Source: Thermodesulfobacteriota bacterium
Lineage (GTDB): Bacteria; Desulfobacterota_D; UBA1144; Nemesobacterales; JAJCZQ01
DNA: 64,000 bases
Direction of reading: 5' to 3'
Assembly (NCBI GenBank): GCA_965203965.1
Contig: CBDBDR010000015.1
Location: forward strand, 1-64,000
Under the pieces are notes generated by a model. That model saw only the letters and a list, made by a program, of their open reading frames with translations, had not been told where the DNA came from and searched no databases. Both the position numbers and the translations under genes were made by a program. Of the stretch, positions 26,582 through 61,100 are shown piece by piece (the stretch's first letter is position 1; the number at the start of each line of letters is the position of its first letter).

Positions 26582-26680
26582 GTTACTGTCTCCATGTGCA
26601 GCTGCACGGTAATCCTCCGTATTCTATTCCCGAATCCGTAATCTTGATAAAACGAAGATAGTCTACCCCGCCTTATCAAC

Positions 26681-28183
26681 ATGGCTGACAGATGCTTTGG
26701 CTGCACCAGCAAGTACAAATTTCGCGAAAAACCACGCGTTTGTCCTCAGTGTAACAGAAACTTTTGTTCCAAATGTTTGGATCCGAAGAAAGGCAGAGAA
26801 ACATGTGTCTACTGCGCTCAAAAATCTGTCTATCGCAAAGAGGAGAAGGAGATTGTTCAAAACTTTCAAGAACACTTTAACAAGCACAAGCGTCATCACA
26901 GAGCACCTCCGACAGTCACCCGGCTCCAGCTGGATACTAGTCGTATTCAAACACAGCAGCAGAATGCTCCTGGTGATCCGGAGAAACCTTATATCAGTGG
27001 TAAGCTGGCACCAGAAGATCAGGAGATAGCCGATCGACTTCAGAAGTTAAGGGAATCGCGCTCATCAGACAAGGAGGAGGTATCTGAAGAAGATATGAAA
27101 GAGCGGTTAGACAAGTTACGGGGAGAGCAGCCTAAGGATCAGTTATCTACCCCTAGTGTTAGTGGAGGTAATCCTGCAGCTGCCGCTGGAACCGATGTAG
27201 AGAAAGCAGACCATCTTATGGAGCAGATGGAAGGAGAGGTCAGACTGGATAAGAGACTGGCAGACAGTCATGGGAACAAGGAAGATGAGCTGTTTGATCG
27301 ATTTAGTGCTCTAACAGGAAGAGAGCAAAATTCAAAACCAGCCATTTCTTCACCAGATGCAGAAGCTGGCGACAATGGGCAAGAGCCAGAAGATCCTGAA
27401 AAAGTGCTTCGTGATTTGAAAGCAATGACAGTAGATGAAGAACGAAAAGCTGCCCTGGCATTGCAGGGTAATGATATGAAGACCCTAGTTGAGGGTGGGC
27501 CTAATGATCAATTTCCTGACATCTCATATCCAACGAAAGACAAACAAAAAGGAGAAGAGGAGATTGCCAAATTAATGGAGATGGCCAAGGAAGAGAATCG
27601 ACTTGAAGAGAATGCATTGAAAGATGACCAACAGTTTATTTCAGAAAGTTCTAAGCATCTAGCAAGACTGAGAGATGAAGATGACAAGGAAGAAGAAGTT
27701 CGTAGTAAACCAGCTGCTGCTGCTGCTAAGAGAGACCTAGAATTTCAATGGCGGCATTTTAGTGGTTCACAAGCCTCTAATGCACCTGGTGCAGTGAGCA
27801 GTATTGTGGACTGGATGGATGAGGATGACAGTGACTTTGATCAACAGGTTCATGAGCTGCTGGAGCAAATGGCTGTTGAAGGAAAGCTTGATGAACGGTT
27901 GGAAAGAGATGGTCTTACACATATTGTTGAGAGAGAAAAAGAAAACGATTCACAAGCAAGACCACTTCCATCATCGTCAGCAGCTGCTGCTGCTACTCCA
28001 TACGGTGCATTTGGTGAAGACGACCTACCGTGGTGCTGCATATGCAATGAAGATGCTGTCATTCGTTGTTTTGATTGTAGCTCGGATCTCTATTGTTTGC
28101 GATGCTTCTCTGAAGGTCACCAACAATTTGGATTGTTTGATCACCGCTATGCTCCTTATGAGCCTCCAAAGAAATCAAATTAG
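26681..28183 (+). CDS. ZFYVE19: Abscission/NoCut checkpoint regulator (ANCHR)-like, single exon
   Basis: N-terminal atypical FYVE-like finger (CFGC...CPQC...FCSKC...CVYC), [13 protein letters not shown]-terminal [32 protein letters not shown]. Confidence 0.88.
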
Positions 28184-33882: not shown

Positions 33883-34407
33883 ATGAGTGAAATGTGTAGT
33901 CCCGTTAATACCGCTCAGGTAAGAGTGAAATGATTTATCGTGTTGTATTGAGATAATTTTTGGCAGGATCATGTTTCTGTGGGCGGGGCAGAAATGGATA
34001 TAGTCTGTTCTCAGTTTGGTAAAACTGTGTTCGTTCTCATTACCGACATGAATAAGATGGGTACATTGGTGAGTGCTAGCACTGTTTTAGCTATTGGTCA
34101 CGTTATTGCACAGATGGCTGTTGACAGGGAGACCGAGGGACCACAATCACAACCAATATTCTCAGTTCGGACTTTGCTAGGTCATGATAAGGTGTGTGTG
34201 TGTGTGTGCTCAGTCTAACATCTCACAGCACTGTCCTACTGTCCCATGCAGCCTGACATACACGTGTTTGGTCGTGCTGTTGGTGAATGTGTCCTCTCTT
34301 CGTCCCCTTCATCACTTCTGCTTGGTTTAGGAGTACGTCACCCTAACCCTTCCTCTATCCCTCATCTCCTTCCAACCATCAAACAACTAGTCAGCACTGT
34401 TCAATAA
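33883..34407 (+). CDS. PSMG3: Proteasome assembly chaperone 3, 4 exons
   Basis: Spliced product ...DIVCSQFGKTVFVLITDMNKMGTL...FSVRTLLGHDKPDIHVFGR...LLLGLGV, a PAC3 pattern. Stop at 34405-34407. Confidence 0.8.
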
Positions 34408-34557
34408 CCTCAACCAACGGATATTATCTCATAAAAATCTATAATTCTGTTGTTTGTTTTTATGTTGAAAATGATAAATTTATGTTTACATGATGCATTT
34501 ATTAATTTTGGTAAATTATTAATAGCGACTTTTCATTGTTTTTATTTGCATCTATTT

Positions 34558-37500
34558 TCAGTACTGGTCCATTCCTGGTTGGTTGACGTGTGCCAGTACC
34601 TCATCATACACACTGCTCATCTGGTCCTGGTAGGAAGGAGTGAGGTGAGCAGGGAGATGAGAGAGGATCTTCATAGCAAGGCTGCACCATCTCTCAGCTT
34701 GTCTGTGCTGAGTAGTACTGGGGAAAGCATGAAGAAGATCCTGTATTATGAGTAGGAATGAAGGCTACCTGTACAGGTGTATACCGGTGTTCCATACTTT
34801 AACCAACAACCACACTAGCTCCATCTCCGGAAACTAAGAGAAGCACGATATTATACACTGAAACATAATCCAAATACCTTAGTGCCGTTCTCAATTACTC
34901 TCAGGGCTTCGCTGAGCACAGTCCATGCCTCTTCAGTACTGGCCATGTCAGTAGCAGTCTCTCCTGCGATGTGCACCATTATTAGGCTGTGGTAGCAATG
35001 CCTAGGCAGTGACAAAGCAGCACCTTATAGCTCACAGCTTGCCTTATTATACTTACGCTAATCGATCACCATCAGGAGAAGTGACATGTGAGTGCAGCTC
35101 AATAGCTTTGTGGAGTGCTGCCTGGGCTAGTCTCTTGTGATTGATACTGCTACTAGTAGTGCTGTGACTGGCAGCTTGTAACACCAATGCTGGGAGAAAC
35201 AGAGACTAAAGATATATGTCTATGATGAGACTAAACATACAGACAATAGTGTGATTGAATTTCACTACAACTTCTCACCAGCAATAGTCTCATATATTTT
35301 AGGCTCCACATTGTCTATTTGGCTGACTCTTTCCATAACACGACCAGCTTCAATGGAATGAAGAGAGAGCTGTGCCTCTAGCTCGTAGAGAATAAGCAAG
35401 GGAAGAGAAGGGTCAGATGAAAAGGATGGAAGCAGTTGACAAAGATCCCGACATTTGTTGACGTGTGATAGAACTTGCTCCATGAGGTCACACTGAGAGA
35501 GAATTAATAGTGATAAAGACAGCCTTCATACCTTTTCCTGTTCACTGGTACGAGCAGCCTGTAGACAAGCAGCTGCTGACATCAACTGACATGTCTTTTG
35601 CCGAGAAATGTTTGTGTGGTCATTGGGTAAGATGGAACATAACTAAAACGAGTAAAGATATCAGAAGATAATAGTGAAGACCAATAGCTCACTTTGTAGC
35701 AAGCCTGAAAGGCACGTCTCATTTCATTGAAGTTATTTCCTGATTGTAGAGCGGCGTTCCAGGACACTTTCATGAACCATACACTCTCAGCCACCTTCTC
35801 TTCTTCCTTCAGCTCAGATAGGTACTGTTCTGCCTCCTCTACACAACCAAGCACTCTCTGAAGTGTGGAGCTAAGGCAGAAGGAGAAGAAAAGTTGATGA
35901 TGAAAAGTTACGAGTGATCAATAGCTCACAGTTGGTCTTCAGTGGATGCATCGTTCAGTTCAGTCAGCTTCAATCGTATTAGACACCTGAAGATCACGAG
36001 AGAGTGAGCTAAGAAATTTAATCAGCTACTCACCTTAGAGATGTGAGTGCCTGTTGATTATTCACAGAATTTTTTGATATATGTTGCAATGCTTCTACAG
36101 CTAGTTCTTTATTGTTGCGCTGTTTGTGAATGGCACTGGATAACTTACTGTAGGTGATGCATGCCTAACCTCAAAAGCTAGTTGTGCAGCAAGAGAGAGC
36201 AATCCAGGAAGATCATCAACACACTGGTCACCAGTAACCATTGCCTGGAGTGCTCGGATAGCTGATAATAGCATGTACCAGTGAGAAGGAATTGAATGAT
36301 AAAGAGAAACTTACCATTATCCCTTTCTCCCAATAACACAGCAACCTTGAAGGACAAGAAGTGAGTGTGTGGAGAGTCTGATTCCTGTTGTAGAGCTGAC
36401 TGAACTGCTTCAGTAGCCTGAAGGGCACATCATGATGATCATCATGACTATACTACTACTACTGTCACCTTCTCATACTGTTTCAAAGCAATGTAGCACG
36501 CACAGCGATTTCTCTACAAGAGTAGCAGAGTGAAGTAGAATGTAGTAGGCAAATACAGTATCTAACCTGTAGCTTGGCAACATTTTTGTCTCCAGAGCTG
36601 TGTTCTGGGAACAATGCTAGAGAATAACTGTACCACTGGAGAGCATCAGACCAGTCGGACAACTGGATGATAAGAGACGAAATTGTAAATGCAGATATCG
36701 TAATTTTGCTACTTGTTTTTAATTCACGATTATTATTTCTGAAAATCACAAAATGAATATTGAAAAGTGGCGAGTTAATGTGGTATATGAGTTGAGTGAT
36801 ACTATGGTTGGTGTTTTGATAAATGAATGAATGACAGGCTAATGCTGTTTCTTAGTTGCCTTCCCAGGGTCAGTTGATCCTTTGCTTTTTCTTGAACGCT
36901 TGACACCACCAGCACGGCAAGGCAGGCAGTAAGGGCTGTCCTTTGTCTCGATACCACCGATCCTGACTGAGATCGTCACTTTAGGAGGGCACGGTGGGTT
37001 GATTATGAAACTAGCAGACCACAACAATTGATCGCGTGTCTGGCGTATAGTCACAGGACAAATTCGACCAAAAGATAAAGATGCTTTCACATCAATACCA
37101 AAGTCAACGTTCGGATCAACTGCTTCAGCAACATGCTTGAGAGATACCAGGAAATCATTGCTACCTAACTGAGCGAAACGAGGCATTGTAATGATCACAT
37201 TGTCAACTAGAGAAGTGTCCACAGCCTTACTTCTCAGAGGGTTGAAATTGGACAATACCGTAGACCACTGAGATTTTCTCACAAGAGATTTGTCAGATGG
37301 TAGTGTGGCGAGCATCTCAAACTGTTCTGTGACCAGCTTGCTAGTTGTGGCAAGGTCAGTGCTGCTGGCTGAGGAAAGAAGCTGTTGAGAAAATGCGAGT
37401 GCACTTGCAATGCGGGTGCGCGAGAGTATGAACTCTTCTTTTTGAGCTGACAGCTGCTTTGTATGTGAAGAGCTAACAATAGTCATGTCTAAGGCAAGAG

Positions 37501-40420
37501 ATGTTTTGTGATGGCGCAGTTGTGTATTCTGTGCTTCTAGAGCTGCAATGCGTGATTGATTTGCAGAAATGCACTTATCAAAAAATCGACGAGCTTCACG
37601 ATTGTAAAAAGCTAACTTCTCCTGCTCTGCTCGGCTTTCTTTATTGATATGCTTCAGGACGGCCTGGAGTTCGGTATCCTTCCTTGTTATGCTGGTTGAT
37701 AGATTTTCCACCTTTTCCATTAGTTCACTTGTGACATCCTTTACGAAGGCATAGTCATGCTGCTTGTGAGTGACAATAGTGCAGTCTCGACAGATGGCCT
37801 CCTGGCAGGTCCTGCAGTACAGCTTCAGTTCCTCTCCATCATGTTCTGTGCAGTAGTGTTTCTGGCTCAGCTGTGTAATCCCTCCACTCTTGATTTCTGA
37901 TATTGAAACGGTATTGTGGTTCTTTGTGGATCGCTGTTTCTGATGAAGAGTGGTACAGTCCTTACACAAGTAGAAGTTACAGTCAAGACACTTGCTAGCA
38001 GCAGGGTTGTCGTCGGTCTCATTTTCACATTTGTTGGGCACGCCCAGTGCAGGATCAGAGAGTGACGAGAATTCCACTACATTAGCGACAGTGAAGTTGG
38101 TAGAGAATCCACTCACGCCAGTTGAAGGAAGATTGTGTTTGGCACCACATGTTGGACATCGAAGGACGGCGCCTGATCTTGATAACCCCTCTAAGCACTC
38201 TTCACAGAACGTATGAAAGCAGGGAAGTATCTTTGGCGCCTTTGCTCGCTTGAATAGCTCCATACAGATTGTACATGCATTCGGGCAAGCGCCAGGAGTC
38301 TTGCATCTTTGATACCTCCTTTGGTAGGGACTGTCATGCTCGACGGCGTCGAAGTTTATCACAATCGGAGAAGTAGACTGCCGTGAGGACGCCATTTCAG
38401 TAGCACAGCTGCTGGCAACGAACCACGTGGCGACCCGCGGCCGCCTTTAGAGAGGGCGTGAACGATTTTTTACGCGCGCAAATTAAATTTTGTACTGTAG
38501 AAAAGTACTTACCTCAAATGCTTTTGCTGCTTGTTCCCACAGTATGTAGTGCAGCTGGTTGATTGCTGCATTACCAGTACTGAAATTATCGCCACGAACA
38601 TGAGCTGAAAAGAAATGTATCAATGAAATTACAAACGAAAAACTAACAAGTGATGCACTCTTCCACTAAGCCTTTAGCATCAACAGTAGCTCCTTTCTCA
38701 AGCAACAAACCCTAAGGACAAGAATGCTACACATGACACCTCTTTCATTCTCTCACCAGGTGGAGAAGGTGTATGCTAAGCAAATCAGGTGAGTGCTTGT
38801 ACTTTTGTTTCAGCAGAGTAATGCCAGCCACAGCAAGGTCATGCCTGGGAGTGATAATAGCTACACATGTACTGGGAACAATGGAATACATGCCTGTTAT
38901 ACTGAGAGGCAATCCTAATAGCAACGGAAGCCATCTCTACACTAATATCAGGATGAGTTAGAGTATCATCAAGTGCTGTGTGAAGGAGATTGACATACGA
39001 TACTCTCTCTGTCCCACACGCACTCACTTGATGCTAGCCGTTCACTGTCAGGCATGTACTGCAAGAGCATTCGTATCTTTAACAATAAACCAGACGGATG
39101 AGAGTGCTCTGAGTTGGCTAAACCTATCAGAATCATTAACTAAAGTAATCATCAGAATATGCTCCAACACTGACCAACAGCATTGAGAGCTCGCTGCCAC
39201 TTTGTTGCTCCATCCCACTCGAGAAGAGAATTAGCAAGAAGTCGAAGAGTGCGTGCCTGGTCACTATGTTTCACCACCAAGCACTAAATCAGAAAGCTAA
39301 GTTTACCTGTTTTACTGCTCCAACATTCTGTGTTGTTTGACCAATATCATAGCTCTCCCTAAAACAAAGAGTGATCACTTGATTGCTGACAGCATCATTC
39401 TCTCACTTGAGCCAGTTGACAGCATGCTCATATTTTCCACGCTGGAACAAATCTAGACCACAGTTATAGCACAGCATGGCAAGGTAGCTAGCCTGCTGTG
39501 ATAAGCATTGAATAAAAAAATGTGGTAAGAAAATTTGAGTACTTCTTTGTTCAGTTCAGAGAGAAGTTGTCGTGCCTCTTGAGCAGCTAGTAGTCCTTCC
39601 TCTGCCTGGTTGAGTGCTATATACTGCAGAGAGACATTGGTGAGATTTAGAGAGAAGCTGTTGATTACCGCTTCAGCTTTACAGCACAGTATTCTAAACA
39701 ACAGCTTCACACAGTCTTGTTGTTGACTTATTGATGGATGGTCCTTACTGAGTTTCATCCAGCACTGAAGAATACAGAGAAGAGGTATATTTATGAGCTG
39801 GAATAACTAGTACCTGGTGAGCCAGGCTGAGAGTTGTTTCAGCCATAACAGCATTTTCAGCATCTATATTAAAATAAAGTTAGAACATACAGGAACACGC
39901 TGACTGAATTACCTAACCAAGCTCTACTTGTTTTAATAGCCATCTGAAAATGAGAATAGCAGGTGAATAACAGTCAATCGACTAACTGTAATTTGCTTCT
40001 TAAGTCCTTGTTGTGAGGATTGCGAAGGAGTGAAAAGAAGGACAACACTGCAGGCCACTTGACGCACTACACACACATTATAATGATTGTATAATACCAG
40101 GATTTTCACATACACTTTGCATTGAGACTGAGTGAGAGTGTGTTTGCTGATTTGAGAGTGACCACTTTGTTCCAGAGACTCACGCCACAGCCATGCAACT
40201 GTGTGGCAGAAGAAGAGCTACATATAGCAGAGGGCGAGGAGTGAAGGTGCTGTATAGCTTTGTCAGCAAGCAGTGACATTTCTTCATCTTCACAACTACT
40301 GGACAATTCACCTAGCAGACCTAAAGAAATGATACTCCTCTTACAATACTGCTAGCTACTTGTCTGACCTTGTAAACTAGTAGTGAACCGAGCAGCAGCT
40401 TCTGTAGCCTCCAGCTCCAT
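34558..40420 (-). CDS. TEX11: TEX11/ZIP4/SPO22 meiotic TPR protein, many short exons
   Basis: LHGCGVSLWNK, LHYILWEQAAKAFE|LSDWSDALQWYSYSL...KLQRNRCACY, WFMKVSWNAALQ, FPEMELVWLLVKVWNTGI, AERWCSLAMKIL; all match recalled TEX11 motifs. Confidence 0.85.
36839..38395 (-). CDS. Intronless TRIM E3 ligase (RING, B-box1, B-box2, coiled coil, filamin-like C-terminus; TRIM45/56-like) nested in a TEX11 intron
   Basis: RING CTICMELF...PKILPCFHTFCEEC...CPTC. B-boxes CLDCNFYLCKDC...H and CTEH...LYCRTCQEAICRDC...H. Filamin-like end VRIGGIETKDSPY. Confidence 0.9.
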   Translation of the reverse strand: MASSRQSTSPIVINFDAVEHDSPYQRRYQRCKTPGACPNACTICMELFKRAKAPKILPCFHTFCEECLEGLSRSGAVLRCPTCGAKHNLPSTGVSGFSTNFTVANVVEFSSLSDPALGVPNKCENETDDNPAASKCLDCNFYLCKDCTTLHQKQRSTKNHNTVSISEIKSGGITQLSQKHYCTEHDGEELKLYCRTCQEAICRDCTIVTHKQHDYAFVKDVTSELMEKVENLSTSITRKDTELQAVLKHINKESRAEQEKLAFYNREARRFFDKCISANQSRIAALEAQNTQLRHHKTSLALDMTIVSSSHTKQLSAQKEEFILSRTRIASALAFSQQLLSSASSTDLATTSKLVTEQFEMLATLPSDKSLVRKSQWSTVLSNFNPLRSKAVDTSLVDNVIITMPRFAQLGSNDFLVSLKHVAEAVDPNVDFGIDVKASLSFGRICPVTIRQTRDQLLWSASFIINPPCPPKVTISVRIGGIETKDSPYCLPCRAGGVKRSRKSKGSTDPGKATKKQH

Positions 40421-40622
40421 AGTACTGTCCTCGACTGTCTCAGACTCCCAGGCACACGCGCTGCAGCTGGCACGATTTTCGCGCGCGCGGGCCGAGCACA
40501 CGTGGAATTATGTCTCTGATGTCAGTATACACTGTACAATAATAATTTTAATTTCAAGTAACATGATACAACTTCTTGTTAGATTGTATGATAAAAATAA
40601 ATGACACACTGCCACACATTAT

Positions 40623-43600
40623 TTAAAGGACCTCCCACTCATCAAGGGTAACCGTCTTTTCAAGATCCTTGCTGCCCCGACCAGGGTATGTTCCACTCCT
40701 ACTCCTACTTGATCTTCTCACACACACAGGCATCACTTTTACCTGCTGCTTAAGAACAGATCCACGCTCATCAATTACTAAAAGATGACCATTGCCAGTT
40801 AATGATAGTTTTTCGAATTTGCCAGGAACATGTCTCCAGTAGTCTCCTGTTGGATTAGAATCTGATACTCCATGTCGTGCGAGAAGGCTTCCTGATGGCG
40901 TGAGAGTGAATACTTTACTATTTGCTGCTGCTAGCTGCTTAGCTTGTTCTCCAGGTACTAGTTCCCACTGAGTGCCAACAGGAAAATCACTAGTCACTCC
41001 GATCCGTGCATATGCGTTATTATTCTTGTCACATGCCCACACAATCAGATCATCTGGACTGATTGCTATCTGTACAAAAGGCTGTGCATTGCCATCTACT
41101 GGTATCCAGGCTGGAGCCATGCCAGTACCAGGCTCACGAGGATGAATTCCAAACCGAAAGTGAATGTGACCAAGATGATCTAGTGCCCATGCCACACGGT
41201 TCCCAATAGCTAGTTTAACTACACTCAAGTTTTGCATGTGTGTGCCAAGCTCTATGTAGTCCCAAGAGATGCCATGCGGCATGCTAGATGTAATACTCTG
41301 TCGTGACCAGATCTGCTGTTTACTAACAACCCAGAGAGCAGAAGAAGATGCAGCCACGTTAGTGACCTTTCCTTGACACTCAACATGCTCTGTTCTGGTG
41401 TTCGATGGCACACAGCATAGCTCTCCATCATCCCGTACAACCCATGGTGCAATGTGGCCTGCTTCCACTTGGCTCCAAATACTGAGGTCAAAGATCTCAT
41501 CCTCGCAAATTTTCTCATAGCTAAATCCCGTAGCATTGCCCCAACATGCGTGTAGTTGACTGTCGGATGTTAAGACACAAACACCAGACTTCATGCAAGC
41601 AGATATTCCAAGCAAACGATGTGAAAGTCCTGCTGATATACGTGAGGACATTGACATTAGCAGACTGCCAGTATTAGATCGTTCTATTGACATGAACTTC
41701 AATAAAGAGTCAGTCGGTGAAGAAGCTGGCGTCTTGGAGATAGTGGAGTGTGTGGTTTCCCACCATTGGCCAGAGCCAGAGGGCTCATGAGAGGATGCCC
41801 CAAAGTGGAAGAATAATCTACTGTGTAAATTTACACCCCAGACTATACCAGATGCTGTGACACTGACTGCTGCTAGTAAAGGTGCCTTGCCAACCTTTGC
41901 CCATCCTTCCCCAATTGGAATAGAACCAGTGATTCCTTCTCTGACATACGATTTGCCAGCAGCATCAAGAGCCCAAACAATGCTGTCACAACAGGCAATC
42001 TGGGTAAAACACAAAGGATGAGTTGGGATTTCCCGCCATACAGAACCATCGGGAAGACCCTCGGACACTTCTTTCCTATAGAAGACCTTGCCATCTAACA
42101 TTAACATCCAGATAGCATTCTCATCACAGGCGATCATCTTTACTTGTCTCTTCATTGGTGTGTTCTTGGTTAGATTCTTCCATGTAGATCCAGACTGATT
42201 GAGATCGCTGATGCCAAGACGTGCATATGCATGTCCATTGTACACACCCCAAACAATTTTACCAGAGGAAGAGGAGGAGATAAGGTTCATAGGATGCTTC
42301 ACCGGTTCCCACCTGAGACGTCTGTTGTCTGGTCTGCTCCAAAAGACGGACCCTTTTAGGTCAGTGATCCAAAGTGATGTATTTGACAGGCACACACACT
42401 GCACATGACCACCGGGTATTGGAATTGGTGACCATATATCACCATTGTATGAAACACTGTCGGCACACATTGCTGGATCATCTATCACTGGTTTGTCTTC
42501 TGCTTCATCTTCCTTAGGCGAGACAAAAGATGTCATGATACGAGACCTGCGATGAGGCGGGAGAGCATCAGCAGGGTTTGATTGCTTAGTCTGCTTCACC
42601 AGATCTCCTAACATGTTGTAGAAACCTGATTCAACACGTGTCATTCTATGCGATATCTTCTTCTTTTCTTCCTCTTCATCCACATCCTCATCTGAGTCAA
42701 AATGATGGAGAGCTAAGTGTTCTTCTAGATCCTCGTCCATGCTGCTTTCTGATAGAGTATTCGACAGTTCTTGATCATGGCTGCTAGCTGATACATTCTG
42801 CTCATCTTTCTGTCCCGGTAATTGTGCCTGAGTAGGTGATTCTTCTTCCTCGTTCTCTTCTTTCAGTGCATAGGCTCTTCGTCGTTGAATGAATGGAGTA
42901 TGCTGGTCTGTTTTTTCGTCCACCTCTTTTACCTCTTCTTTAACAGTCAACAGACACTCGTCATAAGGCAATTCCTCTTCATTCTTTCTTTCATCGCTTT
43001 TCTCATTTGCAGGAACATTTTCTACCTCATCCTCATTGCTTTCACTTTGTTTCTCCGTCACGTTCACTATATTTTCTTCGCATTCTATTGTCTCATTTGC
43101 TGTATCAGCTTCTTTCTCTACAAGGCATTCTTTTTCTTTGAGGTCATCTTCACCAATTTCAGCGTCATCACAAGTTGTGACAACTGGAGGTAAGATCTCT
43201 GAAGAACTCTCATTGACAGATGTAACAGAGACTGGTTTGGTATCTTCAAGCTTCTCCTCTTCTTCTACTGCTTCGTGTAAGCGTTCAATTGAACTGTGTG
43301 TGCCTATAAAAACAGTTGAAAATACAGTAGTGAGCTAGTGAACACTGATAATGAATAGATTATACTGATAATAATTGAGTAAAGGTGTTGCTTACTAGAT
43401 GATGGAGTGAGTTTGTGTCTTTTCTTTCGTCTCTTAGTCTTGTTTCGTTTGGTTTTTGAAACAGACTGTACAACAAGGTCATCTTCATCTGCAACTTCAG
43501 CCATCTTTGTCCTCCGCAGCGTCTCCTCTTCTGATACCACACGAGTGACAGCCAACTAATGTACAGAAAATAAATGTGTGATTGTAACGGGACATGATAA

Positions 43601-49200: not shown

Positions 49201-52200
49201 CTGTTTCTAAAGGTAGACTAATGAATAGTAGTGATGGCTGACAGTACATGTACGCTGTTTTTATAATGGATGGAACTGGACTTATAAAAGATAAACAGCA
49301 GATTTCTACTATCCCAAAGCGATCTTCCCTGTCTGCTAGTTCGAGTAGATACTGCTAAAGTGAGAAACGAGTAGAATCTGTGATTGTGGGCCATCATACT
49401 GGTTCTCTATGATGCATGTGGCAATCGTCTGTGAGTCATCATGGGTATAGAAAGCGAAATACTGCTTGATTGATTTGCCTATGTGTAGCTTAATCATCTT
49501 GTCAAAAGGATGTGGAAATGAAGACTGATCTGACAAAACTAAAGGCTCGTCTGCACTACAGAACTGGTTCAATGTGCATTAGTTAAAGATCAGATCATAG
49601 TGCATCGATCTGCTTACCACATGTCCGCACTGGTTGCAAATGCTGTTGTCATGTGACGTAAGCAACAGCTCGCTAAACAGCAAGAAAACTGGCCTTGTCA
49701 CATACTAACGCTATTCTAGTGTGTTTCGTGTCCTTTCTTTGCCCGAGCGCCGACCAGAGCTTCCATAGTACTAGTCACACGCCATGTGTTCGAGACCACT
49801 CCCATATCCAATCCAGTTCAAGTCACTTCAATGCACCTCCGTATGTGCACATCGATTCGCGTAGATTCACTTTTGTAAAATTGACGTGTAATGTAGACGG
49901 GATTAAACTACGCATTTTGAATGCGCATTGAACCGCATTAGAGCCCTAGTGCGGACGAGCCTTAACTAATTTGAAGTTTGAATAAGCTGCATTAGTAATT
50001 CATTACCAAAGTCAAGCAAACCATGAAGCACATCAGTTTTTCATTAACATTATTAATTTTCTCTTTTCCAGGTTGTGAAGTTGGATTTACAGCACAATGA
50101 GCTCACAGAAATACCTCGGTGTATCCTTGAGCTGCCTAGTCTAACCGAGCTCATCCTCTCCCACAATCATATTGTGGAATTGCCTGATATACATGAGTGG
50201 TCCGCTGGTCTGACAGTACTAGATTTGGCTTTCAATGAGCTAAGCAACCTCCCTAATACAATCGTAGCTCCCTCCATCAGGACACTGAATATCGGCGGCA
50301 ACAAGTTTCGCTTCGTTCCACTTTGCATCTGCTCCTTTACCAGCCTTCAATATCTTGATCTCAGTGAAAATGTTGATATTCTTTCTCTTCCTGTTGAGAT
50401 GGGTCGACTCTCTAATCTCACCAAGCTAGGACTGGTAGGTCTAAAGGATCTCAGTGATCCTCCACGTAATGTCCAGCGTGATGCAAGAGACTGCGTTCAC
50501 TACCTCAATAGCAAGCTTCGCAGTGCTAAAAAATTTTATCGCATGAAGCTTATGCTTGTTGGCAAGCAAGATCGAGGTAAGACAACTTTGGTAACTCGAC
50601 TGCAAGGCAATGAGATCGTGGGTCCCAACCAGTCTACGGTAGGTGTAGACGTGAGCGAGTGGAATTATGGTGGTATTGGCAAGCGCAAGTTTCAGTTTAG
50701 TATCTGGGACTTTGGTGGTCAAGAAGAATACTATGCTACTCATCAGTGCTTTCTCTCTGAGCGATCTATGTACCTCCTTCTTTTCAACCTCAAGCACGGA
50801 GAAAAAGGAGTCGAGGAGCTCAAACCATGGCTTGACAACATTGTCCTCAGGGCGCCACGTTCCTGTGTCATCATTGTTGGTACTCATCTTGATGAAGTGG
50901 AAGACTCAGAAAGGCCACAGATCGACCAACTTCTCAACAGTGTGGCCACTCTTGCCAGCAGCTATGGCAACAAGCTGCAAGTTCCTGAAGTATTGCCAGT
51001 TGGTCTTGTGAACAGGCTAGAGAACATAGGAGCTCTTCGCGAGGCAATATACTTACATGCTTCCGAGTTTAAGGCTCGAGGAAACCAGCCAATTATGGGA
51101 CAAGAGATTCCTGCTAGCTATTTTCAGCTCAACAAAGAATTGGAGAAGATACAACAACAAGTGAAAGAAAACAAGAGTGAGCCAATCATGCATGCCGAGC
51201 GCTTCAAGGATCTAGTTCAACAGCTGAAGCTCCCTGACATCCACAGCGATGGAGAGCTGCGAACAGCCACCCTCTTCCTCAACGAGGTAGGAACTATTCT
51301 CCACTATGATGATCGTAGCCACAACTTAAATGAGCTATATTTCGTGGATCCTCGTTGGCTTTGCGACATGATGTCAAAAGTTGTCACAGTCAGAGAAAGA
51401 AACAACTTTGTCAAGAATGGAATTCTCCATAGTATGTACATACCATTTCTTTATCGTGACAAACGATTTCCCTGGCAGTACTTTGAGCAGTATGTCACTC
51501 TTCTGGATCGCTTTGAAATAGCTCTTCCTCTCGACAACAAGCGAATACTTATTCCCTCCATGTTGCCCATTGAGCGTCCAAACGATGCTGATCTGTCTAG
51601 TCATCCAGATGGCCCTTACTACATGCGCTACATCACATTTGCTACTACTGTTCCTCCTGGATTCTGGAGCCGACTTATCTCTCGTATCATGCACACTGTG
51701 CCTGAAGTGTGCCATGCTGTTGATGTGAAAGCTGCCATGTCAAGTGATGAGGAGGCTATGGCATATTCTTATCCAGGAACACCAGATAAACCAGGTGACT
51801 TACTTATGGATTCTTCTGAGGCCGTCTCTCCTGCTGGACCTCAATCTCCCAAGCCACAGTCTCCTTTGTCTACTCCTTCTACTCCTTCTACTCCCGGTAG
51901 TCAGCCTACTGTTCACCCACCCCTTGTTTTGCCTAATATCAGTCGCATTATTCATGATGAAGACTTTGGCGATGTCAATCCTGAAGACATCAAACTGGTG
52001 TACTGGAGAGAAGGACTAGTGTATGATGGACCTACAGTTAGTTTTGCTGTGGAGTCACTGACAAGATCAGGGCATAGATCAAAATCTGGTAGACAAGGTG
52101 TGTTATTAAAGGCATCTCCTACTGGGAAAGGCACCAAGACTATCTGCCTCTTGGTCGACTTGGTATTGGCACTTATTCATGACTGGTATCCAGGCCTGAA

Positions 52201-55000
52201 CGAAAGTACCTTTGCCAGTGGATGTGGTGTTGAGCAATGCATCCCTTGCTATGAGTGCCTCAGAGAAAACCATAGTGATCCTTTTGAGTTTGAAATTGAG
52301 CAATCACGTCTACATATAAGTAACAATCAGATGCAGATACGATGTGGATACAACACAAGAGATGATTCAGCCAATCATTTAGTCCAATTAAGTGACATTG
52401 TTCCAGATATGCTCTTGAGAGATCTTGATGCTGTATTTCTCCTTAAGAATTCTGAAATCAAGTATCAAGAAGATGCCAATTCTTTGCTAGGTGAGGGAGG
52501 CTTTGGAAAGGTGTATCGAGGCAAGTGCAGAGATAAGAGTGTTGCTATTAAGAAGTACATAGTGAACAGCAGTCGTCTTGAAGATGCCTTCAGTGAGCTT
52601 CGAGCAGAAGCTCTTGTTCTTCAGAAGTCTCATCATCCGTGTTTAGTGTGTCTTGTGGGAGTCTGTGTTCATCCTATGATGGCACTGGTTCTAGAGGAAG
52701 CTCCCATGGGATCTTTAGAGAAGTACCTCATTAAGAAACCAATACCAATTTCTCGAGTTGTGATCTATCGCATGGCAGCTCAGATTGCAGCTGCACTAAG
52801 GTTTCTTCATAATACGGGGTACATCTTTAGAGATCTGAAAGCAGCAAATGTGCTCGTTTGGTCACTAGAGCCTGAGTCTTTGTGCCACTGCAAGGTAACA
52901 GATTTTGGCATCGCCACGCACCTCTCTCCAGTTGGAGCACTTGGAATTCAAGGAACAAAAGGGTTTATTGCTCCAGAGGTTCTCTACATTGGAAAGAGGA
53001 AGGCTGTCTATACTCACAAGGCTGACATTTTTTCTTTTGCAATGTTGCTGTATCAGATGATTGCTCGTCGCCATCCTTTTCATAATGTACAGCCAGTGAA
53101 GATTGATACGAAGGTTGTGAGTGGAGAGCGTCCGAACATTGTTGATGTCCCTTTCGCTGACACTGGTTACTTTTTCTTGACCTACTTGATGAAGAAATGT
53201 TGGGAAGACAGACCAGAGTTACGACCACAGACCAGTGATATCATCAACAAAGTGTCTGGAATGGTCATGCAGTCAGTGATGGCCATACATTCGGTGAACA
53301 GCCGCTTCTCTGTACGCCGTTGCTGTGCGATTACACCAAGTAACTATGCTCGTGCTAATGTAGGCAACCATCCAAGTGAGCTTTGGGTTTGTTGCGATGG
53401 GGCCGAGGGAGCGGAAGTTAATATCTACAGCACTCGAATGGTGAAGCTGAACAAAAACTTTATCAAAGATAATCAAGTGCAGTGCATGTGCGTGTGTGGA
53501 GACCATGTCTGGGTTGGATCACGAGCTGGCATTGAGTATGGAGTGATTGATATATTCAGCATCACATCACGCGAACTTGTTCACAACATCCGAATGAGAG
53601 AGAATTCAGTCTCCTGTATCACCTGCTCTGACTCAACTGTCTACCTCGGTACACTTGAGGGCTACTGTTTTGCTTTCTGCATGGATATCAAGGCCATTCA
53701 GTCGAATGCTCGTCCACGATATAAGTACATCTCTGAGAATGCAGTGGATGGTATCGCTGTGACTAACAAGCATGTATGGGTGTCTCACACTAAACTGATA
53801 TACTTCCTCAACCTTGAAACACTGCAAATGGAACACTCCTGGCACCGACAAGGGAATCAAGATGAAGGGAATCAAGATGCGTTCATTGGACAACTGTCAT
53901 GTTCAAATGATGGAAAGATCATCTGGAGTGCTCATCTTGGAGGAACAATATTATCTGCTTTTGATGCACACGATGAGACCCACTTGTACGATATCAATAT
54001 CCAGCAAGAGTTCATACGTTTAGTGGGGAAAGGAATCCACTCAGAATATGATATCATAATGACAGCCGTAACTCCAGCACTAGACACAGTGTTTGTGGGC
54101 ATGGCAACAGGTCACATCGTGGTATTCCATGAGCAACTAGTAATGATGATCGCTCGACCATACACAGAGTATGTGAGGTTCCTTTGTCCGATTTTATCAG
54201 AAGGCCCTTGCCAGACAGAAAAGTGCATGGTCTTGGCTGGAGCTAAAGGATTCACCAGCCCTTTACCAGAGTACGATGTTGTTCTTTCTACAGCCGACTC
54301 AGAGGAAGAAAAGGGACATCAATCAGCCGGTGTACTAGTGATGTTTGAAGCTTATCCTGGCCCAATGATAAAGCAGATGAAATGTCTTGAGGATGATGAA
54401 GGAGGCTATTTGTCATCACACACTAATCTCGCCAGAATGATTCGTAGTCAGCACTTCAAAGATGCTACTCATATCCTTGATTTAGCTGGAAAGAGTGAGA
54501 CACTGAGACCAGTTCTACAGAAAACCACCAAAGATTTTGAAGAAAGCGGCATTCGTCACTCTATGCTGACCTCCTCCATAGCTGGCTCTCTTCCCTCTAC
54601 TCCTATCAAACAATCAAATGAAAATTTTGAAGAGAAGAAAATTTCACCACTTCCCTCATCCACCGAGATAGATGGACAACCTCCTTGTAACAAGGAAGAA
54701 ATTATCAAAGAATTGGAATCTCCTCCTCGACCACGAGCAAGAACCAACACGGTTATTCAAGAGACAATGGATGTGGAAGTGCAAGGCCAAGCGGTACGTA
54801 TCTCCTGTCCCAAGCCAGCAACAATGTCAGAAGTTATGAGAGAGCTAGCCATCAATACATCAAAGGAGACAACTCAGAACCATTGTCTTGGGTATAGAGC
54901 TCTAGATTCGGGAATGATGATAAAGGTGCTCGCAGACGATGAACTACAGCAGTATCTCAAAATGGAGTCTCGACCCAGCCTAACCTTGATCCTAAAATAA
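46226..55000 (+). CDS. LRRK-like Roco kinase copy 1: ANK-LRR-ROC-COR-kinase-WD40-like plus PB1-like tail; exons 46226-46631, 47445-48052, 50072-55000
   Basis: Ankyrin GYTPLHEA/GYTPLHLA, LRRs, ROC RMKLMLVGKQDRGKTTL and IWDFGGQEEYYATHQCFL, COR PPGFWSRLI, kinase LGEGGFGKVYRG, VAIK, FRDLKAANVL, DFG, GTKGFIAPE. Confidence 0.92.
46993..47266. repeat. Two-copy tandem duplication (~140 bp unit) in Roco copy 1 intron 1
   Basis: cctgccttggctaagac...caatgggtagtgtccctccctctcttaaaatagaacttagcagtttacactatgatgccatgct...gtaaccact starts at 46993 and again at 47136, with small indels. Confidence 0.9.
49543..49962. mobile_element. PIF/Harbinger (Tourist-like) MITE, 420 bp
   Basis: TIR AGGCTCGTCTGCACTA / TAGTGCGGACGAGCCT (1 mismatch in 16), TAA on both flanks (49540-42, 49963-65). 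Confidence 0.8.
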
Positions 55001-58100: not shown

Positions 58101-61100
58101 TGATGCAAATCGAATTCAATGTGCATATAATGTACATTGAATTCGCAATTTTGCCATAGTATAATGAAGGGCCTTAAATGGGTGCACACTGCTCACTTCA
58201 TACTTGTTTACTCTTTCCCTATCTAGGTCGTTCTGCTTGATTTACAGCACAATGAGCTGACAGAAATACCTCGTTGTATCCTTGAGCTGCCTAGTCTAAC
58301 CAAACTCATCCTCTCCCACAATCATATTGTGGAATTGCCTGATATACATGAGTGGTCCGCTGGTCTGACAGTACTAGATTTGGCTTTCAATGAGCTAAGT
58401 AACCTCCCTAATACAATCGTAGCTCCCTCCATCAGGACACTGAATATCAGCGGCAACAAATTTCGCTTCGTTCCACTTTGCATCTGCTCGTTTACCAGCC
58501 TTCAATATCTTGATCTCAGTGAAAATGTTCACATTCGCTTTCTTCCTGTTGAAATGGGTCGACTCTCTAATCTTACTAAGCTAGGACTGAAGGGTCTGAA
58601 ATATCTCAGTGATCCTCCACGTAATGTTCAGCGTGATGCAAGAGACTGTGTTTACTACCTCAATAGCAAGCTTCGCAGTGCTAAAAAATTTTATCGCATG
58701 AAGCTTATGCTTATTGGCAAGCAAGATCGAGGTAAGACAACTTTGGTAACTCGACTGCTAGGCAATGAGATCGTGGGTCCCAACCAGTCTACGGTAGGTG
58801 TAGACGTGAGCGAGTGGAATTATGGTGGTATTGGCAAGCGCAAGTTTCAGTTTAGTATCTGGGACTTTGGTGGTCAAGAAGAATACTATGCTACTCATCA
58901 GTGCTTTCTCTCTGAGCGATCTATGTACCTCCTTCTTTTCAACCTCAAGCACGGAGAAAAAGGAGTTGAGGAGCTCAAACCATGGCTTGACAACATTGTC
59001 CTCAGAGCACCACGTTCCTGTGTCATCATTGTTGGTACTCATCTTGATGAAGTGGAAGACTCAGAAAGGCCACAGATCGACCAACTTCTCAACAGTGTGG
59101 CCACTCTTGCCAGCAGCTATGGCAACAAGCTGCAAGTTCCTGAAGTACTGCCTGTTGGTCTTGTGAACAGGCTAGAGAACATAGGATATCTTCGTGAGGC
59201 AATATACTTACATGCTTCTGAGTTTAAGGCTCGAGGAAACCAGCCAATTATGGGACAAGAGATTCCTGCTAGCTATTTTCAGCTCAACAAAGAATTGGAG
59301 AAGATACAACAACAAGTGAAAGAAAACAAGAGTGAGCCAATCATGCATGCCGAGCGCTTCAAGGATCTAGTTCAACAACTGAAGCTCCCTGATATCCACA
59401 GCGATGGAGAGCTGCGAACAGCCACCCTCTTCCTCCATGAGGTAGGAACTATTCTCCACTATGATGATCGAAGTCACAGCTTAAATGAGCTATATTTCGT
59501 GGATCCTTGCTGGCTTTGCGACATGATGTCAAAAGTTGTCAGAAGAAACAACTTTGTCAAGAATGGAATTCTCCATAGTATGTACATACCATTTCTTTAT
59601 CGTGAGAAACAATTTCCCTGGCAGTACTTTGAGCAGTATATCACTCTTCTGGATCGCTTTGAAATAGCTCTTCCACTCGACAACAAGCGAGTACTTATTC
59701 CCTCCATGTTGCCCATTGAGCGTCCAAACGATGCTGATCTATCTAGTCATCCAGATGGCCCTTACTACATGCGCTACATCACGTTTGCTACTACTGTTCC
59801 TCCTGGATTCTGGAGCCGACTTATCTCTCATATCATGCACACTGTGCCTGAAGTGTACCATGCTGTTGATGTGAAAGCTGCCTTATCAAGTGATGAGGAG
59901 GCTATGGCATATTCTTATCCTGGAACACCAGATAAAAAATCAGGCGACTTACTTATGGATTCTTCTGAGGGCGTCTCTTCTGCTGGACTTCAATCTCCCA
60001 AGGCACAGTCTCCTTTGTCTTATCCTTCTACTCCCGGTAGTCAACCTACTGTTCACCCACCCATTGTTTTGCCTAATATCAGTCGCATTATTCATGATGA
60101 AGACTTTGGCGATGTCAATCCCGAAGACATCAAACTGGTGTACTGGAGAGAAGGACTAGTGTATGATGGACCTACAGTTAGTTTTGCTGTGGAGTCACTG
60201 ACAGGATCAGGGCATAGATCAAAATCTGGTAGACAAGGTGTGCTATTAAAGGCATCTCCTACTGGGAAAGGCACCAAGACTATCTGCCTCTTGGTCGACT
60301 TGGTATTGGCACTTATTCATGACTGGTATCCAGGCCTGAACGAAAGTACCTTTGCCGGTGCATGTGGTGTTGAGCAACGCATCCCTTGCTACGAGTGCCT
60401 CAGAGAAAATCATAGTGATCCTTTTGAGTTTGAAATTGAGCAATCACGTCTACATATAAGTAACAATCAGATGCAGATACGATGTGGATACAACACAAGA
60501 GATGATTCAGCCAATCATTTAGTCCAATTAAGTGACATTGTTCCAGATATGCTCTTGAGAGATCTTGATGATGTATTTCTCCTTAAACATTCTGAAATCA
60601 AGTATCAAGAAGATGCCAATTCTTTGCTAGGCGAGGGTGGCTTTGGAAAGGTGTATCGAGGCAAGTGCAGAGATAAGAGTGTTGCTATTAAGAAGTACAT
60701 AGTGAACAGCAATCGTCTTGAAGATGCTTTCAGTGAGCTTCGAGCAGAAGCTCTTGTTCTTCAGAAGTCTCATCATCCGTGTTTAGTGTGTCTTGTGGGA
60801 GTCTGTGTTCATCCTATGATGGCACTGGTTCTAGAAGAAGCTCCCATGGGATCTTTAGAGAAGTACCTCATTAAGAAACCAATACCAATTTCTCGAGTTG
60901 TGATCTATCGCATGGCAGCTCAGATTGCAGCTGCACTAAGGTTTCTTCATAATACAGGGTACATCTATAGAGATCTGAAGGCAGCAAATGTGCTTGTTTG
61001 GTCACTAGAGCCTGAGTCTTTGTGCCACTGCAAGGTAACAGATTTTGGTATCACCACGCATCTCTCTCCAGTTGGAGCACTTGGAATTCAAGGAAACAAA

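What the first reader, a model, noticed from the sequence alone, without database searches (positions are those of the whole stretch)
36663..38512. Intronless TRIM gene nested on the SAME strand inside a TEX11 intron
Seen: TEX11 exon ...AAKAFE ends at a gtaagt donor (38512) and resumes LSDWSDALQWY after a cag acceptor (36663). This 1850-bp intron, among ~50-bp ones, is almost wholly filled by a 518-aa TRIM ORF with a CpG-rich upstream stretch. Known: nested genes are usually antisense to the host. Inference: a retroposed or transposed TRIM inserted in a meiosis-restricted host, tolerated because of separate expression.
Basis: partly seen in the sequence, partly recalled or inferred. Interest (0 to 1): 0.75.

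Follow-up and report, generated by a model that had tools for sequence, protein, structure and literature searches.

The report
Intronless TRIM gene inside TEX11 intron
A complete, separately transcribed ubiquitin-ligase (TRIM) gene sits on the same strand inside one hugely enlarged intron of a meiosis gene (TEX11/ZIP4 family) in an unidentified invertebrate; the arrangement is real but is an ordinary example of a well-described kind of gene nesting.

Summary
A 518-aa RING/B-box/B-box/coiled-coil/filamin TRIM ORF (36839-38395, minus strand) fills 84% of a 1850-bp GT-AG intron (38512..36663). The host is a 28-exon, 901-aa SPO22/ZIP4/TEX11-family gene whose other 26 introns are 39-89 bp (median 49).

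Transcriptome-like contigs of a public run hold a 2753-nt host mRNA. Its length and piece coordinates fit only if exactly this intron is removed. The same run holds a separate unspliced 1643-nt contig, 36769-38411, that stops about 100 nt inside both splice sites. An independent DNA run is colinear across both intron borders.

The TRIM 5' end is one of two CpG islands in the region; the other is the host promoter.

Origin: most paralogs have ORFs interrupted inside the RING, read here as a short intron. The window copy is uninterrupted yet nested within them (AU p 2.7e-8). This fits retroposition, but there is no poly(A) remnant or convincing target-site duplication.

A 78%-identical, full-length ortholog exists in a sister taxon, probably on the same contig as its TEX11.

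Same-strand, single-exon nested genes are the known pattern in Drosophila (PMC3814207). The window is animal DNA binned into a bacterial MAG. Verdict: a new member of a known kind, of low to moderate interest.

The parts
36839..38395 (-). Nested TRIM coding sequence, 518 aa, no intron: RING (res. 41-83), B-box1 (123-160), B-box2 (182-213), long helix 218-342, filamin-type Ig domain about 377-494
   Evidence: ORF. Pfam RING and B-box hits above cut-off. AlphaFold model. Foldseek hits to KAP1 RBCC and to the Lin-41, TRIM3 and TRIM45 filamin domains.
36769..38411 (-). TRIM transcript as assembled in RNA-like run X1: 1643 nt, unspliced, colinear, 0 mismatches. The 5' UTR is at least 16 nt and the 3' UTR at least 70 nt.
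   Evidence: table 8, record 2 (depth 36.3). It ends 101 nt and 106 nt inside the host splice sites, with no loose ends there.
38396..38512 (-). CpG-rich 5' flank of the TRIM, the putative promoter: 11 CpG in 117 nt, o/e 1.53. It holds CCACGTGG, GCGCGCG and AAAATCGT.
   Evidence: The CpG-island-like stretch 38201-38620 is listed.
36663..38512 (-). Host intron 15, 1850 bp, phase 0, GAG|GTAAGT...CATCCAG|TTG
   Evidence: Its removal in RNA is inferred from the contig length and coordinates.
38513..38604 (-). Host exon 15 (...HVRGDNFSTGNAAINQLHYILWEQAAKAFE)
36567..36662 (-). Host exon 16 (LSDWSDALQWYSYSLALFPEHSSGDKNVAKLQ)
34558..40420 (-). Host SPO22/ZIP4/TEX11-family gene, from ATG to stop: 28 exons, 901 aa
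   Evidence: Gene model from RNA joints plus hand-read introns. Pfam SPO22 on exons at 39367-39501 (27.9 bits, cut-off 27.5) and 39035-39259 (19.6 bits). Exon-wise scores of 25.5 and 12.8 bits.
40400..40599 (-). Host promoter CpG island (o/e 1.12). It holds CCACGTG, GCGCGCGCG, AAAATCGT and TTTCGCGC. The RNA contig starts at 40478.
36718..36723 (-). ATTAAA, the only canonical-type poly(A) hexamer between the TRIM stop and the host 3' splice site, which lies 55 nt further on
   Evidence: Its use as a poly(A) signal is inferred, not shown: the RNA contig ends earlier, at 36769.

Best explanation
This is a host/nested gene pair. An autonomous, intronless TRIM E3-ligase gene (RING, B-box1, B-box2, coiled coil, filamin domain) lies in the sense orientation inside intron 15 of a TEX11/ZIP4-family meiotic gene of an unidentified invertebrate. 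Shown: the host pre-mRNA is spliced across the whole TRIM. The TRIM is present as its own unspliced RNA contig that begins 16 nt before its ATG, next to a CpG island. Inferred: the TRIM uses its own promoter and ends near the ATTAAA at 36723, about 55 nt before the host 3' splice site. When the host is transcribed, polymerase must therefore read through the TRIM's 3'-end signal, and the strong GTAAGT donor and CAG acceptor remove the whole gene as an intron. Having no internal splice sites, the nested gene cannot mis-splice with the host; that is the published explanation for why same-strand nested genes are mostly single-exon. Origin (inferred, about 55%): a processed (RNA-derived) copy of a member of a large, tandemly expanded TRIM family landed in a formerly ~50-bp intron before two sampled sister taxa split. 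It lost the family's RING intron on the way and has stayed intact and fast-evolving since.
For: The ORF and domains are intact, with all Zn ligands conserved. The RNA-like run X1 holds a spliced host contig of 2753 nt, equal to the exon sum of the 27-intron model, and a separate TRIM contig at 36769-38411. DNA run X6, from another study, has one contig colinear over 36454-40700. In the 200-bp steps over 34000-41199, the bins with CpG o/e of 0.98 or more lie only at 38200-38599 and 40400-40599; the highest bin elsewhere, 0.93, is inside the TRIM body. Intron retention would stop after 12 codons, and I read no in-frame acceptor into the TRIM, so there is no fusion protein (and my reading). Retrocopy signs: of 48 family rows, 23 start inside the RING, 16 start later, and 2 carry a junk insert between the RING halves. 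The window TRIM is the only uninterrupted row in its 33-row clade (SH-aLRT 99). The AU test rejects placing it outside the 42 other non-outgroup rows (41 of them interrupted or starting later; P0044 has a contiguous RING): delta lnL 160, p 2.7e-8. As a control, ORFs of relatives read straight through a known host intron in the same database. Age and constraint: a 520-aa ortholog at 78% identity has indels only in whole codons. Its longest-contig length (1,006,547) equals that of a host exon-24 ORF of a relative. The pattern matches Drosophila, where 72.5% of same-strand nested genes are single-exon (passages).
Against: The joint across 36663-38512 was not among the 15 of 28 joints printed, so it rests on arithmetic and depth. 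Contigs cannot show true transcript starts or ends, the strand, or whether the two RNAs come from the same cells. X1's label as RNA is the tool's guess; only its intron-less contigs support it. The 'intron in paralog RINGs' is inferred from protein predictions, since no paralog DNA could be fetched. The outgroup rows have contiguous RINGs, and the AU group was named after the tree was seen. No poly(A) remnant was found. The only flanking direct repeat (13 of 14 nt, at 36704-17 and 38522-35) is at chance level and would put the host donor inside the insert. A CpG-island promoter is not what a bare retrocopy brings along, which favours a DNA-level copy or an inherited 5' UTR promoter. Many long uninterrupted ORFs occur in this window (27 of at least 150 aa), so intronlessness alone is not unusual here.
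Confidence: 0.85

Rival explanations
1. The nested arrangement is the same, but the TRIM arrived by DNA-level duplication or transposition of a gene plus its promoter from one of the family's tandem arrays. The RING intron was then lost separately, or was never present in its direct parent.
For: The CpG-rich 117-bp 5' flank (o/e 1.53) is unlike the host's small introns (o/e 0.20) and looks like imported promoter DNA. There is no poly(A) tract and no credible target-site duplication. Family members sit in dense tandem arrays, with several hits sharing contigs of 7928, 45889, 426919 and 388697 bp. More distant family members (P0031, P0034, P0037, P0040, P0041, P0044) have contiguous RINGs.
Against: It needs a second event, a precise intron loss, in a lineage nested four well-supported nodes deep among interrupted paralogs. 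No flanking paralog-derived sequence or transposon ends were seen: the repeats are short and at chance level.
Confidence: 0.35
2. The TRIM RNA is not an independent transcript. It is a by-product of the host: retained-intron or intronic-polyadenylated TEX11 pre-mRNA.
For: It has the same strand as the host. Both RNAs are found in the same run at similar contig depth (42.8 and 36.3). Contigs cannot define transcript starts.
Against: The TRIM contig stops 101 nt short of the donor and 106 nt short of the acceptor with no loose ends. No laid X1 contig covers 38412-38512 or 36663-36768 (depth bins reproduced in my arithmetic). A CpG island sits exactly at its 5' end. Retention gives a stop after 12 codons. 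An intact ORF is kept in a sister taxon at 78% identity.
Confidence: 0.07
3. The two TEX11 halves are separate genes, or the join is an assembly artefact.
For: None found. The window does lie on a eukaryotic contig wrongly binned in a bacterial genome, so caution about the assembly was warranted.
Against: One RNA contig carries a continuous open frame of 898 codons, from the ATG to the contig's end just short of the stop, across the junction. DNA contig 13 of run X6, from a different study, is colinear over 36454-40700. The exact TRIM protein is recorded on 3 contigs, the longest 1,130,156 bp.
Confidence: 0.01

Closest known systems
[quoted passage not shown]
   Same: A whole protein-coding gene lies inside one intron of a host on the same strand. 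The nested gene is single-exon, as are 72.5% of same-strand nested genes there. It evolves faster than its host (78% against about 91-93% protein identity here). It comes from a duplicated family, and the host has a germline function.
   Different: The host genome here is very compact: 49-bp median introns in this gene, so the intron grew 37-fold. Tissue expression of the nested gene is unknown here, whereas a testis bias is shown in flies.
Mammalian host/nested gene pairs and intronic retrogenes (Montibus et al. 2024, PMC11694760, passages; Kaer et al. 2011, PMC3192792, abstract only)
   Same: An intron holds an independent transcription unit. Interplay through premature polyadenylation of the host is a known possibility and would apply here, with ATTAAA 55 nt before the host acceptor.
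   Different: No truncated host isoform was looked for or seen here. Mammalian introns are long, so nesting there costs little.
Filamin-domain TRIMs: vertebrate TRIM45 (RING, two B-boxes, coiled coil, filamin); TRIM2/3/71 (filamin plus NHL). The class naming is recalled, not tested.
   Same: Domain order is RING, B-box1, B-box2, coiled coil, then one filamin Ig domain. Foldseek target TM-scores are Lin-41 filamin 0.75, TRIM3 filamin 0.75 and TRIM45 filamin 0.66.
   Different: Identity to named TRIMs is only about 25-32%. Pfam Filamin is not hit at sequence level. There are no NHL repeats. It belongs to a lineage-specific expansion of about 50 relatives seen only in unnamed assemblies. Orthology to TRIM45 was not tested.
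TEX11 / ZIP4 / SPO22 (ZMM meiotic crossover protein family, Pfam PF08631)
   Same: The host exons match the SPO22 profile in colinear order (positions 28-72, then 81-141). The protein is 901 aa, TPR-like and all-helical by sequence character.
   Different: The scores are borderline (27.9 bits against a cut-off of 27.5). The C-terminal half has no Pfam hit. Orthology to TEX11 and meiotic expression were not tested.

Membership tests
TRIM / RBCC E3 ligases | N-terminal C3HC4 RING | tested here: met
   Pfam zf-RING_UBOX 34.9, zf-RING_2 34.5 and zf-C3HC4 29.4 bits, all above cut-off, at residues 40-84. The C-x2-C-x14-C-x-H-x2-C-x2-C-x12-C-x2-C pattern was read from the sequence.
TRIM / RBCC E3 ligases | One or two B-box zinc fingers after the RING | tested here: met
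   Pfam zf-B_box 48.5 bits with 2 stretches. The six-frame search gave 45.9 and 27.0 bits at 37751-37864 and 37901-38035.
TRIM / RBCC E3 ligases | Coiled coil after the B-boxes | tested here: met
   The AlphaFold model has one helix at 218-342 (pLDDT 83-97) and a return helix at 345-363. Foldseek hits KAP1/TRIM28 RBCC at E 2e-7. Dimerisation was not tested.
Filamin-domain TRIM subclass | C-terminal filamin/ABP280 Ig repeat | tested here: inconclusive
   At fold level it is met: Lin-41 filamin E 3.7e-7 with TMt 0.75, TRIM3 0.75, TRIM45 0.66. At sequence level it is not met: no PF00630 hit, although relatives P0031, P0034, P0036, P0037, P0040 and P0041 carry PF00630.
SPO22/ZIP4/TEX11 (host) | Match to Pfam PF08631 above the gathering score | tested here: met
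   27.9 bits against a cut-off of 27.5 at 39367-39501, plus 19.6 bits at 39035-39259, colinear in the profile. The same search 'rings' below cut-off in 5 of 14 bacterial or archaeal control genomes, so this is borderline.
SPO22/ZIP4/TEX11 (host) | Orthology to animal TEX11 and meiotic expression | not tested
   The spliced protein could not be sent to the search tools, since joined sequence is not accepted. The exon-wise searches reached only unnamed relatives.
Host/nested gene pair | Nested gene wholly inside one host intron, and host exons spliced across it | tested here: met
   (length 2753 = model; coordinates match on both sides).
Host/nested gene pair | Nested gene has its own transcript and promoter | tested here: inconclusive
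   There is a separate RNA contig at 36769-38411 and a CpG island at its 5' end. Contigs cannot prove a transcription start.
Retrogene (processed copy) | Lacks introns that the parental gene has | tested here: inconclusive
   Paralog ORFs are interrupted in the RING: in the 33-row clade, 17 start inside it, 13 start later and 2 carry an insert, and only the window row is uninterrupted. The AU test gives p 2.7e-8. Paralog DNA was never seen.
Retrogene (processed copy) | Poly(A) remnant and target-site duplications | tested here: not met
   There is no A-tract after the 3' UTR. The best flanking direct repeat is 13 of 14 nt, with about 0.4 expected by chance (my estimate), and it is placed inconsistently.
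Retrogene (processed copy) | Identifiable parental gene elsewhere | tested here: not met
   The nearest paralogs are only 46-53% identical. The window row has a long end branch of 0.64.

The most novel reading that the evidence does not exclude
The TRIM is not a neutral lodger but part of the host's germline programme. The two adjacent CpG-island promoters share CCACGTG, GCGCGCG and AAAATCGT motifs; this E-box plus GC-rich/E2F-like combination recalls, from memory, promoters of germline genes controlled by E2F6/MGA-type repressors. The TRIM's 3'-end signal sits 55 nt before the host's 3' splice site, so TRIM polyadenylation and TEX11 splicing would compete. That would make a RING E3 ligase and a ZMM crossover factor a coupled, mutually gating unit, conserved across sister taxa.
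Probability: 0.07. Interest if true: 0.55.

Novelty: new member of a known kind. Interest (0 to 1): 0.25.

Why it matters
It is a clean, RNA-supported example of same-strand gene nesting in a compact animal genome. One intron of a meiotic gene grew 37-fold to house a complete E3-ligase gene. The nested gene is single-exon, as the mis-splicing hypothesis for same-strand nesting predicts. It adds a data point outside flies and mammals, and a likely case of a retrogene retained across species inside a gene whose family is needed for fertility in mammals (recalled). It overturns nothing. Practically, it also flags that this 'bacterial genome' carries at least one 115-kb contig of animal host DNA.

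Tried and rejected
1. DNA of relatives. The search for related loci was run with the TRIM on genome contigs (53 pattern matches, 0 relatives) and with alignment A1 (20 matches, 0 relatives). It was also run on viral contigs (10 matches, 0 relatives) and metagenome contigs (71 matches, 1 distant locus, L003, 35% over residues 40-153). L003 is a different kind of genome and was no use. The genome search in the MAG's bacterial family found 0 of 4 other genomes with a match. The orthologous intron in related species could therefore not be inspected.

2. RNA holders. No listed holder is on record as RNA. X1-X4 are 'RNA?' guesses, and X1 is treated as RNA-derived only because its contigs lack the introns. 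In X2 and X3 the host is covered in fragments (depth about 2-4) and the TRIM-specific parts have no cover. This is no evidence either way.

3. Promoter likeness of host and TRIM. The best local alignment is GCGCGCG(N0-3)AAAATCGT, score 21. That score is reached by 2.1% of random window pieces and 8.9% of 56 CpG-rich pieces, so it is not significant. The composite pattern is unique to the two sites in 482 kb, but it was defined from them. All three motifs together occur in 5 of 193 CpG-rich stretches, a post hoc count.

4. Target-site duplication. The direct repeat at 36704-17 and 38522-35 was rejected. It is at chance level, and it would place the host's last exon codons and donor inside the insert.

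5. TEX11-TRIM fusion by read-through or an upstream acceptor. Rejected: retention gives an in-frame stop, and I read no in-frame AG acceptor into the TRIM.

6. Taxon. The HSP90 search was mistakenly run with lengths 'longer'. It gave about 80-82% identity to assorted animals and no placement, so the organism remains 'an animal'.

7. Exon-wise Pfam for the host's C-terminal half: 0 meaningful hits for the 12 C-terminal exons, and only 2 of all 22 exons hit SPO22.

8. First automatic intron searches. One search timed out, one search used an ATG off by one base, and one search gave 3647 possible paths. They were replaced by hand-read introns checked against the RNA contig length.

9. CpG o/e of the TRIM body (0.63) is twice that of the host exons (0.31), but it lies within the range of other ORFs in the window (0.31-0.67). 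It is not used as evidence of youth.
Full report
**What is there**

On the minus strand, an ATG at 38395 opens a 518-codon frame that ends at 36839.
- Pfam finds a C3HC4 RING (residues 40-84) and two B-boxes, all above their curated cut-offs.
- An AlphaFold model built on 19 family sequences has mean pLDDT 68.3. The RING and N-terminus are poorly modelled; the rest scores 72-97. It shows one long helix (218-342), a return helix, and a beta-sandwich at about 377-494.
- Foldseek matches the tripartite part to KAP1/TRIM28. It matches the C-terminal domain to filamin Ig repeats, including those of Lin-41 (target TM 0.75), TRIM3 (0.75) and TRIM45 (0.66).
- The protein is therefore a RING/B-box1/B-box2/coiled-coil/filamin TRIM. 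Pfam's Filamin model does not hit it at sequence level, although more distant relatives carry that domain.

**The host gene**

I rebuilt the surrounding gene from RNA joints and by reading splice sites.
- It has 28 exons, with the ATG at 40420 and the stop at 34560-34558, giving 901 aa.
- Of its 27 introns, 26 are GT-AG and one is GC-AG (38893..38845).
- Twenty-six introns are 39-89 bp (median 49). The remaining one, 38512..36663, is 1850 bp with a consensus GAG|GTAAGT donor and a CAG acceptor.
- A six-frame search of the assembly with Pfam SPO22 (PF08631) hits exons at 39367-39501 (27.9 bits; cut-off 27.5) and 39035-39259 (19.6 bits), in colinear profile order. Single exons give 25.5 and 12.8 bits.
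- That places the host in the SPO22/ZIP4/TEX11 family, though narrowly. Orthology to TEX11 itself was not tested, because the spliced protein could not be passed to the search tools.

**Is the intron real?**

Nine public runs hold the stretch, and I laid four on 34300-40700.
- Run X1 is labelled only 'RNA?'. It contains a 2753-nt contig (depth 42.8) whose pieces skip the introns, all with CT..AC ends, which is GT..AG on the minus strand.
- My model from 40478 to 34569 sums to exactly 2753 nt.
- The contig's own coordinates agree with the model on both sides of the big intron: 40114-40317 = record 114-317, 35693-35870 = 1780-1957, and 34569-34717 = 2605-2753.
- The depth bins also fit exon 15 ending at 38513 and exon 16 starting at 36662. 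Inside the intron the depth is 36.3 throughout, which is the second contig alone.
- Caveat: the tool printed 15 of 28 joints and the big joint is not among them, so it is inferred, strongly, from this arithmetic. One of the 28 joints is not explained by my 27 introns.
- In DNA run X6, from a different study, one contig is colinear over 36454-40700. That spans both intron borders, so an assembly artefact is excluded.

**Is the TRIM its own gene?**

- X1's second contig (1643 nt, no mismatches) covers 36769-38411. It starts 16 nt before the ATG and ends 70 nt past the stop.
- It stops 101 nt and 106 nt inside the host's splice sites, with no loose ends.
- In 200-bp steps across 34000-41199, CpG observed/expected is 0.09-0.93 except in two places: 40400-40599 (1.12, the host promoter) and 38200-38599 (0.98-1.13, the TRIM 5' end). 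The window average is 0.47.
- Intron retention would terminate the host frame after 12 codons.
- This points to an autonomous transcription unit. Contigs cannot prove a start site, so I keep a 7% rival that the RNA is a host by-product.
- The only canonical-type poly(A) hexamer after the TRIM stop is ATTAAA at 36723-36718, 55 nt before the host acceptor. Its use is inferred.

**Origin**

About 50 relatives (30-78% identity) exist only in unnamed assemblies, often several per contig, which suggests tandem arrays. Named proteins reach only 20-46% over the aligned stretch, about 25-32% where more than a quarter of the query aligns (sea urchin, molluscs, vertebrate TRIM56/TRIM3).
- Among P0002-P0053, only 10 of 52 carry the first RING half in the same ORF.
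- In the 48-row tree, 23 rows start inside the RING just before 'CPTCR', often after F/L/I/Y/S-rich junk. Sixteen rows start later. Two rows (P0006, P0014) carry a 16-25-residue junk insert between the RING halves. Seven rows are contiguous. P0002 and P0043 were dropped for short cores.
- I read the interruption as a short intron. As a control, ORFs of relatives in the same database read straight through a known host intron.
- The window TRIM is the only contiguous row within a 33-row clade (SH-aLRT 99). The tool flags its long branch (0.64).
- An AU test rejects placing it outside the 42 other non-outgroup rows, 41 of which are interrupted or start later (P0044 has a contiguous RING): delta lnL 160, p 2.7e-8. 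The group was named after the tree was seen.
- This favours loss of the intron in this lineage, which a processed copy landing in a foreign intron would explain in one step.
- Against that reading: there is no poly(A) remnant; the best flanking repeat is at chance level and inconsistent; no parent is closer than about 53%; the copy has a CpG-island promoter; the outgroup RINGs are contiguous; and no paralog DNA could be fetched.
- I put retroposition at about 55% and a DNA-level copy at about 35%.

**Age and constraint**

- A 520-aa ortholog, P0191, is 78% identical, with whole-codon indels only and the same uninterrupted RING. P0002 and P0192 look like a frameshifted rendering of the same gene on a 4348-bp contig.
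- A relative's ORF, P0197, covers host exons 23-24. It is identical at 62 of 68 exon-24 residues and 17 of 17 exon-23 residues. It shares P0191's longest-contig length, 1,006,547.
- The two genes therefore probably lie on one contig in the sister taxon. Whether the TRIM is nested there is not shown.
- The TRIM diverges about three times faster than these host exons.

**Comparison with what is known**

- In Drosophila, 71% of nested genes are on the opposite strand. The same-strand minority is 72.5% single-exon, narrowly expressed and testis-biased, and is explained by selection against mis-splicing (PMC3814207, passages).
- In mouse and human the orientation bias is slight, and nested genes can drive premature host polyadenylation (PMC11694760, passages; PMC3192792, abstract only).
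- A search for TEX11 + nested + intron found 8 papers (7 listed), none with all three terms in title or abstract (listing only).
- The present case follows the known rule. It is notable mainly for the 37-fold intron expansion in a compact gene and for the meiotic host.

**Context**

The 'genome' is a 2.0-Mb bacterial MAG (99.5% complete) whose 115-kb contig C15 is animal DNA. C15 carries fn3/laminin-G, HSP90, ATE1-like, tectonin and two LRRK-type ROCO kinase genes. The animal was not identified.

**Verdict**

This is a new member of a known kind, with interest 0.25.

Noticed in passing
window 1-64000 = G000:C15:1-64000; genome G000: The window is animal DNA: short spliceosomal introns, with fn3/laminin-G, HSP90, tectonin and LRRK-type genes. 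It sits in an assembly scored as a 99.5%-complete bacterial genome, and earlier notes on other pieces describe bacterial operons. Contig C15 (115 kb), and C6 with two TRIM-like ORFs, are host contamination of a symbiont or associated MAG. The other small contigs were not checked.
   Followed up: partly
window 50057-54997 (+) and 58227-62657 (+): Two tandem, uninterrupted ORFs of 1647 and 1477 aa have an LRR, Roc, COR-A/B, kinase and beta-propeller (LRRK/ROCO) architecture. Long intronless genes are common in this window (27 stop-to-stop frames of at least 150 aa).
   Followed up: no
window 38845-38893 (-): One host intron is GC-AG (CAG|GCATGT...CCCAG). It is supported by the pieces of X2 record 6 (table 8) and, for X1, by the 2753-nt length fit. 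The other 26 introns are GT-AG.
   Followed up: yes
window 36454-36483: DNA run X6 breaks its contigs here, inside or next to the small host intron 36468..36418, which is microsatellite-like (GTAGTAGTAGTA...GATGATCATCATGATG). A 57-nt loose end at the break suggests an indel or haplotype variant.
   Followed up: no
window 37737-37839: The B-box2 stretch of the TRIM attracts high-depth contigs that diverge on both sides (depth up to about 540 in X1 and 228 in X2). Paralogs of the family are therefore abundantly present in the RNA-like runs.
   Followed up: no
window 26651-28180 (+): A 510-aa open frame carries an ANCHR-like B-box at its C-terminal end (53.3 bits). It is a second, unrelated B-box gene 9 kb from the TRIM.
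   Followed up: no
window 40626-43334 (-): A tectonin/Hyd_WA beta-propeller gene, with a 903-aa open frame, ends only about 145 bp upstream of the host's RNA contig start (40478). The host promoter is thus squeezed into a very short intergenic CpG island.
   Followed up: no
G000:C6:5053-5946 (-) and 8290-9171 (-): Two tandem TRIM-like open frames (809 and 744 aa) are 28-30% identical to the window TRIM and also uninterrupted.
   Followed up: no
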